Shown here: one piece after another, positions 33,474 through 36,637 of the stretch
Layout: every line of letters starts with the position of its first letter
Numbering within the stretch: the stretch's first letter is position 1
Source: a virus
Taxonomy: Duplodnaviria > Caudoviricetes
Direction: 5' to 3' (one strand)
Virus record (IMG/VR): IMGVR_UViG_3300037424_001167
Coordinates: 3,867 to 67,866 of that record
DNA: 64,000 nucleotides
Notes under the pieces: model-generated
The model's database searches: none
Seen by the model: the letters and a program-made list of their open reading frames with translations, nothing else
Told to the model about the DNA's origin: nothing
Made by a program: the position numbers and the translations under genes

Positions 33474-33609
33474 GCACTTTTTGTTGTATACTGCCTATGC
33501 GCCTCCAGGCTGTCGTGGCGTGCTGCCTGGAGAACCGAAAACGAACCTGGATGTCCTGCAATCCCAGCTTGTGAGAACAAGAACAGTGCAGGTCGGCCAG
33601 GACACGCCT

Positions 33610-34170
33610 CTACACTAACTCCTGAATTGTCACCTCCCACACATAACCAACTGCAATATCGAGATAGACATTCCCGCCTGAATGCTCCTCTGTTTCACCA
33701 CTTGTATTACTGCTATTGCACATCGTATTGATCGCAAGATCCTTATACGTGCCATTAGCGTTATGAACTGTTATGATCACATTGTATGATCCATTGTAGC
33801 TAGAAGCAGGATCACAACTCCATTTGATTTTCCAGTTATCCCCAACGGTAAATATCTCAGTCTTCTTGACCCCGTTCCCTGTAAGCGTATGCGTTGTTCC
33901 CCATGCAAGGGGGCTGGGAGTGGGCATTGCAGCGCTTGTAGGTGTCAACACTACTTTGGTAACCACGGGAAGCGTGGGGACAATCGTAGTGCTATTTGGA
34001 GGCACTGGAGAGCGACTTGCCACATTGATTGCCACTGCTACAGCAAAGCAACCAGTAATTACTGTACAAATCCAACTTGACCAGCCTGAATACCTCCACA
34101 TCAAATATAATCCCACTGGGAAGAAGAGAATGAGCATCAGGATGATGCCAGTGTTACGTTTGTACCACAT
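33610..34170 (-). CDS. Membrane-anchored exported protein
   Basis: Two N-terminal hydrophobic segments, Pro/Thr linker, beta-rich C-terminal domain; start set at MWYKRN after GAAAGGAC. Confidence 0.75.
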   Translation of the reverse strand: MWYKRNTGIILMLILFFPVGLYLMWRYSGWSSWICTVITGCFAVAVAINVASRSPVPPNSTTIVPTLPVVTKVVLTPTSAAMPTPSPLAWGTTHTLTGNGVKKTEIFTVGDNWKIKWSCDPASSYNGSYNVIITVHNANGTYKDLAINTMCNSSNTSGETEEHSGGNVYLDIAVGYVWEVTIQELV

Positions 34171-34190
34171 AAATTTGTCCTTTCTGAATG

Positions 34191-34219
34191 TTGACATAAT
34201 ACCATAGACGTGGTATGCT
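34191..34219 (+). promoter_or_regulatory. Promoter for the CRISPR-like small RNA
   Basis: TTGACA-taataccatagacgtgg(17)-TATGCT with extended -10 TG. Confidence 0.75.
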
Positions 34220-34222
34220 ATC

Positions 34223-34409
34223 AGGGATAGAAGACGACGCCCGTTTGGGATTGAAACAAACATTGGTAAGGATGAGGGACAGCAGGGATTGAAGATGGTG
34301 CCCGATTGGGATTGAAACAAGCAATAGACTCATATGAAACACAATCAGCCCGATTAAGGGATTGAAACGAGCTTTACTACAAGGACTATGCATCCCGTTT
34401 GGGTACAAC
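34223..34409 (+). CRISPR. Degenerate CRISPR-like mini-array (3 clear units plus 1 eroded), no cas operon
   Basis: Units end GGGATTGAAAC at 34257, 34318 and 34368; units 1 and 2 match at 30/35; each has a CCC-loop-GGG stem. Confidence 0.7.
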
Positions 34410-34411
34410 AC

Positions 34412-34452
34412 AAAAAGCACCTCACGCGATTGAGCGAACGAGGTGTTTTTTG
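34412..34452 (+). terminator. Intrinsic terminator closing the small RNA
   Basis: AAAAAGCACCTC...GAGGTGTTTTTT. Confidence 0.7.
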
Positions 34453-34766
34453 TTGATCTTTAGTAACGCCTTTTGTTATTAAAGAAAATGGCAAAATATT
34501 TAATAACGGGAGCCCTGGGCAGTAGTGGTAAGAAGCCCAGGGCTAAAAAGGACAAACGTACAATCCGGACCGGATGTCTCCATACTACACCATGCAAGGG
34601 GGTGTGGCAAGCTCCCTCCTCACTGTTGAGAGCCTCCTCCTTGCCTCTTGCAGTCTCTTTCCACTAGATTGCCTATCCCTCTACCCGCTCCCTCAGATTA
34701 GCTCCTCAATGCGATTTCAATGTTACACAAGAATGTGGATACACTCTTCCCCATGCAAGGTGTAGG

Positions 34767-34786
34767 ATGTTGATTTAAATCAACAT
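34767..34786. promoter_or_regulatory. Perfect 20-bp palindrome ATGTTGATTTAAATCAACAT
   Basis: Seen directly; a 1-mismatch core TTGACTTAAATCAA lies at 35314-35327. Confidence 0.6.
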
Positions 34787-35008
34787 GGAAATAGGCGTAA
34801 AATAGACTTGCACAACATGCATGTTCTAGGAAGCATGTCTAAAATGCCACTGAGACCGCTTCACAGGCTGATCAAAATTAGAACATTCACACCTGCACAA
34901 CTTGCATCAGTATTTTACAAAAATAAAAATACCGACGTTAACATTTTAATGTGTATCTTTTACCATGCAAGGGGGTTATGTTCTATTACAGTATGTTATA
35001 ACAACAAT

Positions 35009-35221
35009 ATAACATTATGTTGTACATACAACCTTTAGAGTATAGTAGAGAATAATACTCAATATAACAAATTGCTATATTATATATTATATATAGAATA
35101 GTAGTAGTACTATAGTACTATACGCATATATATAGTGTAATGTTACTATTAAAAAGTACATATTAAAATATTCACATTGATTTCTTTTTCTGTAATACTG
35201 ATGCAAGTCATGCAAGTGTGC
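35009..35221 (-). repeat. Copy B of the 213-bp inverted repeat
   Basis: Reverse complement of 12787-12999 (209/213 identical). Confidence 0.95.
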
Positions 35222-35313
35222 AAGACAGTACCTGAACCCGCTCTACAGGCCAATTCATACCTTGCACAAAGTCCGTGCAGGTCTCGTGCATGTCTATTTG
35301 GCCTATTTTCTTA

Positions 35314-35343
35314 TTGACTTAAATCAATAAAGAATGCTAGGAT
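35314..35343 (+). promoter_or_regulatory. Promoter upstream of the tRNA 5' half
   Basis: TTGACT-18-TAGGAT with extended -10 TG, 13 nt before GTTCCCG. Confidence 0.6.
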
Positions 35344-35356
35344 AGCTGTAAACGAA

Positions 35357-35395
35357 GTTCCCGTAGCTCAGTGGATAGAGCACCGGTCGGAACCG
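35357..35395 (+). tRNA. 5' half of tRNA-Arg(CCG), with 3 nt missing from the anticodon loop
   Basis: GTTCCCG-TA-GCTC-AGTGGATA-GAGC-A-CCGGT-CGGA-ACCG. Confidence 0.85.
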
Positions 35396-35477
35396 CACCC
35401 TAGCATTTCCCTGCTACGCAACCAGTTGAGAGAGCGAGGCAACCAATTATTGTGATTATTGTGAAGCATTTTGAGCT

Positions 35478-35521
35478 TGGCGTTCCCGACAGGAATTGAA
35501 CCTGCGCACCCGGTTCCGGAG
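35478..35521 (-). tRNA. 3' half of tRNA-Arg(CCG) including CCA; probable attP core
   Basis: Minus strand CTCCGGA-ACCGG-GTGC-GCAGG-TTCAATT-CCTGT-CGGGAAC-G-CCA, about 80 bp upstream of the integrase. Confidence 0.88.
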
Positions 35522-35599
35522 TTTTATTGCCTTATAAACCCGCTTCACACCTCACTCTAACCCCCTTGCATGGTGAGATGCAACCAATTGAGAGGCAAA

Positions 35600-36637
35600 A
35601 TGCAAAAGAAGATTAAGAAGAGAGAGATACAGATAAGCGTATTAGAAGCTGCTAGCGATTATCTTTCATCTCCACACGTAAAAGGTCTTTCATCCCGTAC
35701 CCAGGAAGAGTACTCCCAGGAACTTGACTTTTTTACGCGTTGGTGTGCCTCTCATGAGATAGTCCAGTTATCACCAGGAAAGCCAAGAGAGTCCGTTACC
35801 TCCTTTCTTGGCATAATGCTTCATCAGATTGATCAGCACACCGTAAGGCTCTTCCTAGACGATCTAAAGGCAACCCATCCCCCTTGCAAGGGGAAAGAGC
35901 TGAGCACTTACACGATTGCCGGTTATGCGCGTGTTATTAAGTCTTTCCTGTATTGGTGCCTGAAAGATGATCAGTATGCACAATATGTAAGTGAAACGAT
36001 TATTAACAGGATAGAGAAGCCAAAGATAATTGAAACAATTATAGAGGTATTTACAACAGAGCAAATAAAAGCATTATTTAAAGCATGCGATAAGGAAGAG
36101 TCTGAACATCTTCAATTGAGAGATAGAGCTATATTGGCTGTATTGCTTGATTGTGGCCTTAGAGCAACGGAATTATGCACTCTCACTATTGGGAATGTGT
36201 CATTAGATGCAAAGGACGCATATGTGAGAGTATTGGGTAAGGGCAATAAGTGGGGAGAGGTAGGATTGGGCGATCAATCACTTAAATATGTGCGAAAGTA
36301 TATCAGAATGTTCAGAGAGCCAACAGTAGAGCACGCAAAAGAAAACAGAAATCAGGCCTTTGTGTTTGTAAACAGGCATGGAGAGCAATTAACAAAATCA
36401 GGTTTATGGAGAATATTTGACCGTTTAGGTCATTGGGCACATATAGAGGGAGTACGATGTTCACCTCATACGATGAGACACACGTTTGCTCAGATGTTTA
36501 TAAGAAATGGAGGAGATATTTATACACTCTCGAAGCTGATGCGTCACAGTTCTTTAAGCGTTACGGAACAATATCTTAAAAGTTTGCAACAGAGTGAGTC
36601 AAGGAAAGGGGCAAAGTCCGTTCTGGACAATCTGTGA
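35600..36637 (+). CDS. Tyrosine recombinase/integrase (XerD-like)
   Basis: DCGLRATE, GKGNK, SPHTMRHTFA, LMRHSS, TEQY catalytic set. Confidence 0.95.
   Translation: MQKKIKKREIQISVLEAASDYLSSPHVKGLSSRTQEEYSQELDFFTRWCASHEIVQLSPGKPRESVTSFLGIMLHQIDQHTVRLFLDDLKATHPPCKGKELSTYTIAGYARVIKSFLYWCLKDDQYAQYVSETIINRIEKPKIIETIIEVFTTEQIKALFKACDKEESEHLQLRDRAILAVLLDCGLRATELCTLTIGNVSLDAKDAYVRVLGKGNKWGEVGLGDQSLKYVRKYIRMFREPTVEHAKENRNQAFVFVNRHGEQLTKSGLWRIFDRLGHWAHIEGVRCSPHTMRHTFAQMFIRNGGDIYTLSKLMRHSSLSVTEQYLKSLQQSESRKGAKSVLDNL

What the first reader, a model, noticed from the sequence alone, without database searches (positions are those of the whole stretch)
34191..34452. Phage small RNA built from CRISPR-repeat-like units (candidate RNA anti-CRISPR or mini-array)
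Seen: a consensus promoter (TTGACA-17-TATGCT, 34191-34219) and an intrinsic terminator (34412-34452) bracket about 230 nt with no credible ORF. Inside are units ending GGGATTGAAAC: 34223-34257, 34284-34318 (30/35 identical to the first) and about 34333-34368 (TGAAACACAATCAGCCCGATTAAGGGATTGAAAC), plus an eroded unit ending at 34409. Each has a CCC-loop-GGG stem. Intervening sequences are only about 26, 14 and fewer nt, and no cas operon is in the window. Established: an ATTGAAA(C/G) 3' end after a stem is the Cas6-cleaved handle of type I/III repeats, and phages carry both repeat-mimicking RNA anti-CRISPRs (Racrs) and cas-less mini-arrays. Inference: short, irregular spacers and divergent repeats suit a decoy that loads aberrant crRNAs into host Cascade/Csm complexes, possibly more than one subtype, better than a true guide array.
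Basis: partly seen in the sequence, partly recalled or inferred. Interest (0 to 1): 0.9.

Follow-up and report, generated by a model that had tools for sequence, protein, structure and literature searches.

The report
Phage RNA mimicking host CRISPR repeats
A temperate phage of Ktedonobacteria (Chloroflexota) carries a small promoter-to-terminator RNA gene built from four worn copies of the conserved hairpin-plus-handle end of its hosts' type I-D CRISPR repeats; it is most likely a decoy or hijacking RNA against host CRISPR immunity, which is a known kind of phage counter-defence seen here in an unexplored host group.

Summary
Between a near-consensus promoter (34191-34219) and a strong terminator hairpin (34410-34453) lie four same-strand units. 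Each has a CCC-loop-GGG hairpin; three are followed by ATTGAAAC and the fourth is eroded.

The 3' 19 nt of unit 1 is identical to CRISPR repeats of Thermogemmatispora/Ktedonobacteraceae genomes. In those genomes, arrays with this ending sit next to complete type I-D cas operons that include Cas6. The 5' halves of the phage units match no host repeat.

Intervals are 25, 13 and 7 nt, against 31-40 nt host spacers, and the phage has no cas genes. A sister phage and metagenome contigs keep the promoter, terminator and flanks (about 95% identical) but reshuffle the interior, retaining only hairpin-plus-handle units. A distant phage (L004) has the same layout.

No inter-unit sequence has a target in viruses, host cas loci or 169 host-class genomes.

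Best reading: a cas-less tandem crRNA mimic, Racr-like. A Cracr-type regulatory guide array is the main rival. Expression and Cas6 processing are untested.

This is a new member of a known kind, and this scan has met similar elements on other DNA.

The parts
34191..34219 (+). Sigma-70-type promoter TTGACA-17-TATGCT with TG before the -10. The predicted start is about 34223-34226, at the first bases of unit R1.
   Evidence: 10/12 matches, the best in the region. Identical in the sister phage L006/L123 and kept in the X4 contigs.
34222..34257 (+). Unit R1, 36 nt: phage-specific 5' half, hairpin CCCGTTTGGG 34240-34249, handle ATTGAAAC 34250-34257.
   Evidence: The 3' 19 nt are 19/19 identical to host repeats; the 5' half matches only 6-7/18.
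34258..34282 (+). Interval 1 (S1), 25 nt. It is the only interval flanked by two full-length units, so it is the spacer-like position.
   Evidence: Absent from the sister phage. No target in viral contigs or in 169 host-class genomes.
34283..34318 (+). Unit R2, 36 nt, 31/36 identical to R1: hairpin CCCGATTGGG 34301-34310, handle 34311-34318.
34319..34331 (+). Interval 2, 13 nt.
   Evidence: Its first 11 nt are shared with L006.
34332..34368 (+). Unit R3: 5' half unrelated to R1/R2, hairpin with a 6-nt loop at 34349-34360, handle ATTGAAAC 34361-34368.
34369..34375 (+). Interval 3, 7 nt.
34376..34411 (+). Unit R4, the terminal degenerate unit: hairpin CCCGTTTGGG 34394-34403, handle eroded to TACAACAC 34404-34411.
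   Evidence: (D2). Host arrays and L004 likewise end in a unit with a degenerate handle just before a terminator.
34410..34457 (+). Intrinsic terminator: 13-14-bp stem (34410-34423 / 34440-34453) with a structured 16-nt loop, followed by a T-run.
   Evidence: I3; fold. 97.5% identical in L006.

Best explanation
This is a phage-encoded, cas-less small RNA gene of about 230 nt, transcribed from its own strong promoter and ended by an intrinsic terminator. It consists of four tandem imitations of the host's CRISPR repeat.

What each unit keeps is the part that host Cas proteins recognise: the short hairpin that Cas6 binds and cuts after, and the 8-nt ATTGAAAC tag that becomes the 5' handle of a crRNA.

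Shown: the sequence identity with the type I-D-associated repeats of Ktedonobacteria, the architecture, and its conservation among phage variants.

Inferred: host Cas6 would cut after each hairpin, after 34249, 34310, 34360 and perhaps 34403. This would release crRNA-like pieces of 61, 50 and 43 nt, against about 72-76 nt for real ones. These pieces carry a correct handle and a correct Cas6 hairpin but a body too short and of no guiding use. By occupying Cas6 and the handle- and backbone-binding Cascade subunits (Cas5d, Cas7d), they would lower the supply of functional type I-D complexes and protect the phage or prophage. This is a multi-copy version of an RNA anti-CRISPR (Racr).
For: Units and transcription signals:
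- The units are real and far beyond chance.
- The promoter and terminator bracket them.
- The region is non-coding.

Match to host repeats:
- The 3' 19 nt of R1 is 19/19 identical to repeats of Thermogemmatispora and 'Chloroflexia' MAG arrays, while the 5' half is at background, 6-7/18.
- Among the host repeats themselves, the 3' halves are 83% alike and the 5' halves 53%.
- The host hairpin shows a compensatory variant, CCT...AGG, in L118/L122.

Host CRISPR type:
- Arrays with this ending lie next to two independent, complete type I-D operons: Csc3/Cas10d, Csc2, Csc1, Cas3', Cas6, Cas4, Cas1.
- Csc2 is present in 59 of 169 genomes of the class. That tally includes the unpublished genomes G117 and G125.

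Phage specificity and host link:
- The full-length phage unit occurs in none of the 169 genomes at up to 3 mismatches.
- The attP tRNA-like segment is 98-100% identical over 42-48 nt to tRNA genes of the same class. That tally includes the unpublished genome G078.

Comparative evidence:
- The sister phage L006/L123 has about 95% identical promoter, terminator and downstream flank. Its interior is reshuffled, S1 is missing, and only hairpin+handle units are kept.
- Contigs of run X4 show two more arrangements.
- The distant phage L004 has promoter, handle, 28 nt, hairpin+handle, 27 nt, a degenerate unit, then a terminator.
- The hairpin-to-hairpin period is 45-49 nt in three loci, against 72-76 nt in hosts.

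No guide function found:
- No inter-unit sequence has a significant match in host cas loci, 28 csc2 loci, the phage itself, IMG/VR or 169 genomes.
- No cas genes are present in the phages.

Precedent: Racrs are promoter-proximal repeat mimics that bind Cas6/Cas7 and form aberrant complexes (PMC10651486).
Against: - No RNA data exist for this DNA, so transcription and Cas6 cleavage are predictions.
- The true host species is not identified. There is no prophage copy and no host spacer against the phage, so a target in an unsampled genome cannot be excluded.
- R1-25 nt-R2 is formally a one-spacer mini-array. Its spacer length is that of Cracr psi-spacers, 21-24 nt.
- A handle followed by a conserved stretch of about 20 nt and the terminator recurs in L006, X3 and X4. 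That recurrence could mean a real guide.
- The recurrent 45-49-nt period hints at a size constraint, which a pure sponge would not obviously need.
- The unit hairpins have only 3 bp and are not the dominant predicted fold.
- No RNA anti-CRISPR against type I-D has been tested experimentally in the papers read here.
Confidence: 0.45

Rival explanations
1. Cracr-type regulatory array. The units are repeat-like psi-R elements, and the short intervals (or the 25-31-nt bodies between handle and next hairpin) are psi-spacers. These would load into host type I-D Cascade and guide it, without cleavage, onto the host's own cas promoter or a CRISPR-guarded toxin promoter, shutting immunity down.
For: - The format matches the preprint 10.1101/2024.10.29.618823: phage arrays of repeat-like units with 21-24-nt psi-spacers. 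These are processed by Cas6 and often multiplexed, and a defective last unit gives a long 3' tail.
- S1 is 25 nt between two full-length units.
- Interval content differs between sister phages, as would be expected if each targets a different host strain.
- Host type I-D loci in this class do contain solitary repeat-like units: L105, between csc1 and cas3', and upstream of cas10d.
Against: - No interval matches any of about 10 fetched host cas loci, 28 csc2 loci or 169 genomes.
- The one 12-13-nt hit, at the 5' end of csc2 in one genome, is mid-spacer rather than seed-proximal. It lacks a GTN PAM, is not better in other genomes, and lies within the shuffled range.
- Intervals of 13 and 7 nt are too short to guide if the 5' half-repeats are counted as repeat.
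- The host solitary unit tested has no self-target.
Confidence: 0.22
2. Offensive cas-less mini-CRISPR array. The phage borrows the host's type I-D machinery to cut competing phages (superinfection exclusion), as shown for archaeal portogloboviruses.
For: - The layout is the same as a native host array: a promoter abutting the first repeat, and a degenerate terminal repeat before a terminator.
- Viral mini-arrays with one or two spacers are known (PMC11656645).
- The element lies in the lysogeny region next to the integrase, where prophage-expressed exclusion functions often sit.
Against: - The review states that mini-array repeats are identical to host repeats and that most spacers hit related viruses.
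- Here the 5' halves match no host repeat.
- Spacer lengths are 25, 13 and 7 nt, against 31-40 nt in hosts.
- S1 has no match in 2.9 million viral contigs, even with every sixth base left free.
- The other bodies have no match in the related phage contigs.
Confidence: 0.12
3. Inert relic. A fragment of a host CRISPR array, picked up by the phage and now decaying, with no present function.
For: - Units decay progressively from 5' to 3' (R1/R2 are full length, R3 keeps only the 3' half, R4 has lost its handle).
- The integrase relatives L124-L127 lack the element.
- The element is rare in IMG/VR.
Against: - The promoter and terminator are almost perfectly conserved between sister phages, while the interior turns over and yet always retains an intact hairpin plus handle.
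- An independent phage lineage (L004) has the same architecture with unrelated flanks.
- The 5' halves do not match any host repeat, which argues against a recent capture.
Confidence: 0.1
4. DNA-level repeats. The GGGATTGAA motifs, which recur roughly every 23 bp, are binding sites for a phage protein (iterons, operators or integrase arm-type sites) and not an RNA.
For: - GGGAT(A/T)GAAG in the 5' half and GGGATTGAAAC in the 3' half of R1 and R2 are spaced 23 bp apart.
- The locus lies 1.1 kb from the integrase and attP.
Against: - The motif plus its preceding hairpin is an 18-19-nt exact copy of a CRISPR repeat end.
- All copies are on one strand, between a promoter and a terminator.
- The tRNA-like att core is about 900 bp away.
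- A different motif, CCATGCAAGG, is the one that recurs around attP and int.
- L004 has the same units with no integrase nearby.
Confidence: 0.03

Closest known systems
RNA anti-CRISPRs (Racrs) / viral solitary repeat units (Camara-Wilpert et al. 2023, PMC10651486)
   Same: It is a phage-borne, intergenic, promoter-proximal, non-coding imitation of the host's CRISPR repeat, without cas genes. The part kept is the Cas6 hairpin and the handle, which are the parts a Racr uses to trap Cas6/Cas7.
   Different: - It is not solitary: there are four units within 190 nt, and SRUFinder discards such clusters by design.
- Only the 3' half (19 of 36-37 nt) matches host repeats.
- The matching host system is type I-D in Chloroflexota.
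- Function is untested.
Cracr arrays: phage crRNA-like regulatory RNAs (Liu et al., bioRxiv 10.1101/2024.10.29.618823)
   Same: It has tandem repeat-like units with short spacer-like intervals (25 nt here, 21-24 nt there) in one transcription unit, and a defective last unit. It is encoded by temperate phages.
   Different: - The defining match of the psi-spacer to a host cas or toxin promoter, or to a host CreR/CreA, was sought and not found.
- Two of the three intervals are far too short.
- That study covered V-A and I-B/C/E/F in Pseudomonadota, Bacillota and Actinomycetota. It did not cover I-D or Chloroflexota.
Virus-borne CRISPR mini-arrays used in inter-virus conflict (reviewed in PMC11656645)
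   Same: It is a cas-less, one-to-few-spacer array on a virus that relies on host Cas proteins. It has a native-like layout, with a promoter at the first repeat and a degenerate terminal repeat.
   Different: The repeats are not identical to host repeats, the spacers are irregular and short, and no protospacer is found in related viruses.
Type I-D CRISPR repeats of Ktedonobacteria (host arrays found here)
   Same: The 3' 18-19 nt is identical: a hairpin with a CCC/GGG stem plus ATTGAAAC. The unit length of R1/R2, 36 nt, is the same.
   Different: The host arrays have 31-40-nt spacers, uniform 5' halves within an array, a conserved leader promoter (TTGnnn-17-TATACT) and, in several cases, adjacent cas genes.

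Membership tests
Type I-D-associated CRISPR repeat family of Ktedonobacteria (resemblance of the unit) | A short hairpin directly followed by the 8-nt ATTGAAAC handle at the repeat's 3' end | tested here: met
   R1 is 19/19 and R2 18/19 identical to the host repeat 3' halves. R3 keeps the stem and handle but has a longer loop. R4 keeps the hairpin only.
Type I-D-associated CRISPR repeat family of Ktedonobacteria (resemblance of the unit) | Arrays with this repeat end are associated with type I-D cas genes, including Cas6 | tested here: met
   In hosts, L117 and L109 carry Csc3, Csc2, Csc1, Cas3', Cas6 and Cas4/Cas1 next to such arrays. Not so in the phage, which has no cas genes.
CRISPR array / viral mini-array | Two or more near-identical full-length direct repeats | tested here: inconclusive
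   R1 and R2 are 31/36 identical. R3 and R4 share only the 3' half.
CRISPR array / viral mini-array | Spacers of uniform length close to that of host spacers | tested here: not met
   The intervals are 25, 13 and 7 nt, against 31-40 nt in host arrays.
CRISPR array / viral mini-array | Repeats identical to those of the host's arrays (criterion stated in PMC11656645) | tested here: not met
   The full-length unit is absent from 169 host-class genomes at up to 3 mismatches. The best full-length identity is 25/37. The true host is unknown, so this is not absolute.
CRISPR array / viral mini-array | Spacers match related viruses or other mobile elements | tested here: not met
   S1 has no match in IMG/VR with every sixth base left free. 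The other bodies have no match in the related phage contigs. The 18-mer hits of the 3' module are at chance level.
Racr / solitary repeat unit | An intergenic repeat mimic on a mobile element that matches the host-type repeat, with no cas genes | tested here: met
Racr / solitary repeat unit | Solitary: no other full or partial repeat within 100 bp (SRUFinder rule) | tested here: not met
   There are four units within 190 nt. The rule is quoted.
Racr / solitary repeat unit | Expressed as a small RNA that binds Cas6/Cas7 and inhibits interference | not testable with these tools
   The promoter and terminator are predicted only. No RNA run holds this DNA.
Cracr array | Repeat-like units flanking a short psi-spacer (about 21-24 nt) | tested here: met
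   R1-25 nt-R2, compared. This is not met for the 13- and 7-nt intervals.
Cracr array | The psi-spacer pairs, over 9 or more PAM-proximal nt, with a host cas or toxin promoter, or matches a host CreR/CreA | tested here: inconclusive
   No match was found in the fetched cas loci, 28 csc2 loci or 169 genomes. The phage's actual host genome is not available.

The most novel reading that the evidence does not exclude
The units are not worn-out repeats but a streamlined design. Each would be a minimal crRNA scaffold of 8-nt handle, 25-31-nt body and Cas6 hairpin. The 45-49-nt period recurs in three phage lineages. Such scaffolds would assemble shortened type I-D Cascades with fewer Cas7d subunits. 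Their fast-changing bodies would then be working guides against host defence genes or rival elements not yet sampled. That would make this the first RNA-guided hijack of type I-D, and the first in Chloroflexota. Its compact repeat format drops the 5' half of the repeat altogether.
Probability: 0.2. Interest if true: 0.6.

Novelty: new member of a known kind. Interest (0 to 1): 0.42.

Why it matters
RNA anti-CRISPRs and phage crRNA-like regulators were described only in 2023-2026, and only for a few subtypes in well-studied phyla. Both discovery pipelines would have skipped this locus: one discards clustered repeats, and the other starts from known CreA/CreR RNAs of other subtypes.

The locus extends repeat mimicry to type I-D and to phages of Ktedonobacteria, a group with almost no phage biology.

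It also shows which part of the repeat the phage needs. Natural variants keep only the Cas6 hairpin and the 8-nt handle. That gives a concrete, small construct of about 230 nt to test against type I-D systems, which are being developed as genome-editing tools.

If the compact 45-49-nt unit proves to be a functional scaffold, it would also be a shorter guide format for type I-D.

Tried and rejected
Known RNA and DNA families
- Rfam (gathering thresholds) and ARAGORN on the whole window: nothing.
- blastn of 33600-35600 against GenBank phages: no match.

Expression and related contigs
- No RNA holder is listed for this stretch, so expression could not be examined.
- Laying contigs gave structural variants only.

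Searches for a target of the intervals
- The 12-13-nt match of two related intervals to the 5' end of csc2 in one genome was rejected. It is mid-spacer, has no GTN PAM, has E 0.3-0.7, is absent from 27 other csc2 loci, and lies within the shuffled-query range.
- The 18-mer of the conserved 3' module hits two tape-measure-like ORFs. These hits do not extend and are about the number expected by chance.
- S1 was searched in viral contigs and in 169 genomes: nothing.

Phage-host link
- 415 spacers from fetched host arrays against the phage contigs: best hit 18/19, no protospacer.

More family members
- The terminator pattern in metagenome contigs found only the L006 contig again.
- The compact-architecture pattern in viral contigs and 169 genomes gave only L004 and L006 as real hits; the other 30+2 are single chance hits in coding DNA.
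- Integrase relatives at 52-70% identity lack the element.

Resemblances set aside
- The apparent resemblance of interval 2 to a host sequence in L118 is an ordinary spacer of an array split by an IS element.
- The similarity of the phage -10 region to the host leader box is only 7 nt, too little to claim a captured leader.
- The host solitary-repeat sRNA in L105 has no self-target.

Not done
- PF01881 (Cas6) found nothing in five host genomes. Cas6 was found later with TIGR01877.
- Neighbouring phage proteins have no Pfam or PHROG hits that suggest acr or aca genes.
- No structure prediction or complex prediction was run, since no protein claim depends on one.

Full report
**What is in the sequence**

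The window is an IMG/VR virus record, 67.9 kb and estimated 84% complete. It carries terminase, portal and tail-sized genes and a tyrosine integrase at 35570-36637.

At 34191-34219 lies the best sigma-70-type promoter of the region: TTGACA, 17 nt, TATGCT, preceded by TG. At 34410-34453 lies a 13-14-bp inverted repeat followed by a T-run. It folds as a strong hairpin; the whole predicted transcript folds at -59 kcal/mol, z = -3.4.

Between them are four same-strand units:
- R1 (34222-34257) and R2 (34283-34318) are 36 nt long and 31/36 identical.
- R3 (about 34332-34368) shares only the hairpin and handle, and has a 6-nt loop.
- R4 (about 34376-34411) keeps the hairpin, but its last eight bases have drifted.

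The intervals are 25, 13 and 7 nt.

GGGATTGAAAC occurs three times in the whole record, all here. The 18-nt hairpin-plus-handle pattern has two exact hits, against 0.15 expected with three mismatches allowed.

**It is not coding**

The listed 236-aa minus-strand ORF that overlaps the locus is an artefact of an upstream TTG. The real gene begins at ATG 34170, behind a ribosome-binding site. It encodes a 186-aa protein with an N-terminal membrane segment and is transcribed away from the RNA gene.

The interior of the locus differs between related phages by large indels and rearrangements. No Rfam family or tRNA is present.

**What the units imitate**

Scanning one genome per prokaryotic species for the 18-nt motif gave 88 loci. 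Every locus with multiple regularly spaced hits is a CRISPR array from Thermogemmatispora, from Ktedonobacteraceae, or from MAGs titled 'uncultured Chloroflexia'. One two-copy array remnant comes from a MAG titled Anaerolineae. The five genomes whose class was checked (G001-G005, holding L011, L057, L025, L046 and L040) fall in one GTDB class.

These arrays have 36-37-nt repeats. The 3' half is the same as in the phage, the 5' half differs from array to array, and the spacers are 31-40 nt:
- R1's last 19 nt are 19/19 identical to several host repeats, while its first 18 nt match at 6-7/18.
- Among the host repeats themselves, the 3' halves are 83% alike and the 5' halves 53%.
- A host variant with CCT...AGG in place of CCC...GGG keeps the stem by a compensatory change.

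Arrays with this ending lie next to two independent, complete type I-D operons: Csc3/Cas10d, Csc2, Csc1, the I-D Cas3', Cas6, Cas4 and Cas1. Csc2 is present in 59 of 169 genomes of the class. That tally includes the unpublished genomes G117 and G125; loci from them were not used in any analysis.

A related array ending in TTTGAAAC sits by an RT-Cas1 module, so the handle family may serve other systems too. I did not establish that.

The phage's full-length unit, 5' half included, is found in none of the 169 genomes at up to three mismatches. The phage and its relatives encode no recognisable type I-D Cas protein.

Two things support assigning the host to this class. One is the repeat identity. 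The other is the tRNA-like attP segment beside the integrase, which is 98-100% identical over 42-48 nt to tRNA genes in three genomes of the class. That tally of 61/169 includes the unpublished genome G078. No out-of-class control was run, so this is consistency, not proof.

**Comparative evidence**

- *Sister phage.* L006 = L123 = L128 (integrase 87% identical) has an almost identical promoter, terminator and 250-nt downstream flank. Its interior is reshuffled: the R1/R2 pair has collapsed into one unit, S1 is gone, a second unit keeps only hairpin+handle, and a third handle is fused to a copy of the terminator loop.
- *Metagenome contigs.* Contigs of run X4 show two further arrangements. X3 and X4 share with L006 a 3' module made of a handle, a conserved stretch of about 20 nt, and the terminator.
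- *Distant phage.* L004 has unrelated flanks and higher G+C, yet the same plan: promoter, a handle at the transcript start, 28 nt, hairpin+handle, 27 nt, a unit with a degenerate handle, then a terminator.
- *Period.* Hairpin-to-hairpin periods are 61, 48 and 45 nt in the window, 49 nt in L006 and 45 nt in L004, against 72-76 nt in hosts.
- *Rarity.* More distant integrase relatives lack the element. A pattern written for the compact architecture finds no other true example in IMG/VR or in the 169 genomes.

Selection therefore keeps the transcription signals and the hairpin+handle, and lets everything else turn over.

**Is anything a guide?**

I searched the 25-nt interval and the longer handle-to-hairpin bodies of the window, L006 and L004. 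The targets were the fetched host cas loci and arrays, the phage contigs, and 28 csc2 loci, with shuffled-query controls. Nothing exceeds chance.

The one suggestive hit was 12-13 nt at the 5' end of csc2 in one genome. It is mid-spacer, lacks the GTN PAM expected for type I-D (from my knowledge of that subtype), is not improved in any other csc2 gene, and is within the shuffled range once 11 queries are counted.

S1 has no match in 2.9 million viral contigs with every sixth base left free, and none in 169 genomes at three mismatches. Hits of the conserved 3' module are chance 18-mers inside coding regions. No host spacer targets the phage.

These negatives are limited by the fact that the real host genome is not in hand.

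**Most likely mechanism**

*Shown:* a promoter-to-terminator, non-coding unit made of copies of exactly the portion of the host repeat that Cas6 recognises and that becomes the crRNA 5' handle.

*Inferred, from the established behaviour of Cas6-type systems and of Racrs (PMC10651486):* host Cas6 cuts after each hairpin, releasing pieces of 61, 50 and 43 nt. Each carries a correct handle and a correct 3' hairpin but a short, meaningless body. These occupy Cas6, Cas5d and Cas7d and lower the pool of functional type I-D complexes.

The location suits expression from the prophage as well as during infection. The locus lies between a variable membrane-protein gene (replaced by another gene in the sister phage) and the attP-integrase region.

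I give this decoy reading 0.45. The main rival, at 0.22, is a Cracr-type regulatory array (bioRxiv 10.1101/2024.10.29.618823). Its format of short psi-spacers, multiplexed units and a defective last unit fits R1-S1-R2 well, but its defining promoter match was not found. An offensive mini-array (0.12), an inert relic (0.10) and DNA-level binding sites (0.03) fit less well, for the reasons listed under the rivals.

**Comparison with known systems, and novelty**

The element works like a Racr but fails the 'solitary' criterion. It looks like a Cracr array but lacks the target. It looks like a viral mini-array but has non-host 5' half-repeats, irregular short intervals and no protospacers.

It is best filed as a new member of the known class of phage crRNA mimics. 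It is notable for three things: the subtype (I-D), the host phylum (Chloroflexota), and the natural 'deletion series' showing that the hairpin plus handle is the selected part.

This scan has recorded comparable elements on other DNA, including type I-D repeat mimics in Microcystis phages, but nothing look-alike to this locus. No expression or functional data exist, so all mechanistic steps beyond sequence identity are predictions.

Noticed in passing
L029 (-, ~7698), L045 (-, ~6953), L067 (-, ~463), L081 (-, ~2203): Ktedonobacteraceae / 'Chloroflexia' MAG chromosomes: A solitary copy of the same 18-nt hairpin+handle sits about 70 nt after a conserved promoter-like box (TTGACC...), with a GGAGG-rich stretch between them. 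The flanks are otherwise diverged. These could be chromosomal or prophage solitary repeat units (Racr- or CreR-like), or Cas6-processed leaders. In all four, the reading frame that gives P-F-G-I-E-T across the motif is open, but 18/18 nucleotide identity argues for an RNA/DNA-level element.
   Followed up: partly
L105 14967-15004 (+), in the Thermogemmatispora tikiterensis type I-D operon: A near-full-length solitary repeat, about 34/37 identical to the adjacent array's repeat, lies in the csc1-cas3' intergenic region directly before the cas3' ribosome-binding site. Cas6 cleavage there would split the operon mRNA and leave cas3' mRNA with a crRNA 5' handle. This is a possible autoregulatory device.
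   Followed up: partly
L105 ~8005-7900 (-), 1.6 kb upstream of cas10d: A solitary repeat is followed by about 75 nt and a terminator-like hairpin. This is a handle-body-terminator small-RNA layout like the phage's 3' module. Its guide-position sequence has no match in the 40-kb cas region.
   Followed up: partly
window 33897-33911, 34586-34602, 34747-34760, 34963-34976 (+) and 35563-35576 (inverted): The motif CCATGCAAGG(GGG) recurs five times around the non-coding attP region and at the start of the integrase gene. Two copies form a 21-nt inverted pair (34581-34601 / 34749-34769). These are likely arm-type integrase/excisionase sites or operator sites.
   Followed up: no
window 34453-35570: This is a 1.1-kb stretch without credible ORFs. 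Its first part is about 95% identical to the sister phage. The 3' half is 98-100% identical to tRNA genes of the host class. ARAGORN calls no tRNA here.
   Followed up: partly
window 33610-34170 (-): A 186-aa protein with an N-terminal membrane segment, a Pro/Thr-rich linker and a C-terminal domain has no Pfam or PHROG match. It is transcribed divergently from the RNA gene, and a different gene occupies this position in the sister phage. It is a moron-like variable slot.
   Followed up: partly
L096/L117, L098, L099, L111, L118, L122, L057, L058, L091 (host CRISPR leaders): Host arrays of this family share a conserved leader. It has a CGCAAAC box, a TTGnnn-17-TATACT promoter inside a conserved ATGCTATACT box, and then only 10-11 nt before repeat 1.
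   Followed up: partly
L118 15352-17330: A host array is split by an IS element. Its distal remnant keeps a half repeat, one spacer, a degenerate terminal repeat and a terminator.
   Followed up: yes
L004 2454-3316 (-): Directly downstream of the analogous RNA element in the distant phage lie an unknown 165-aa ORF and an Arc-like ribbon-helix-helix protein (Pfam 6.7e-08), then a small-terminase-like gene. This could be an acr-aca-like pair.
   Followed up: no
L120 16645-18237 and L121 1211-3141: A group II intron-type reverse transcriptase lies next to Cas1 (an RT-Cas1 adaptation module), beside an array whose repeat ends in GGGTTTGAAAC. The effector type was not determined.
   Followed up: no
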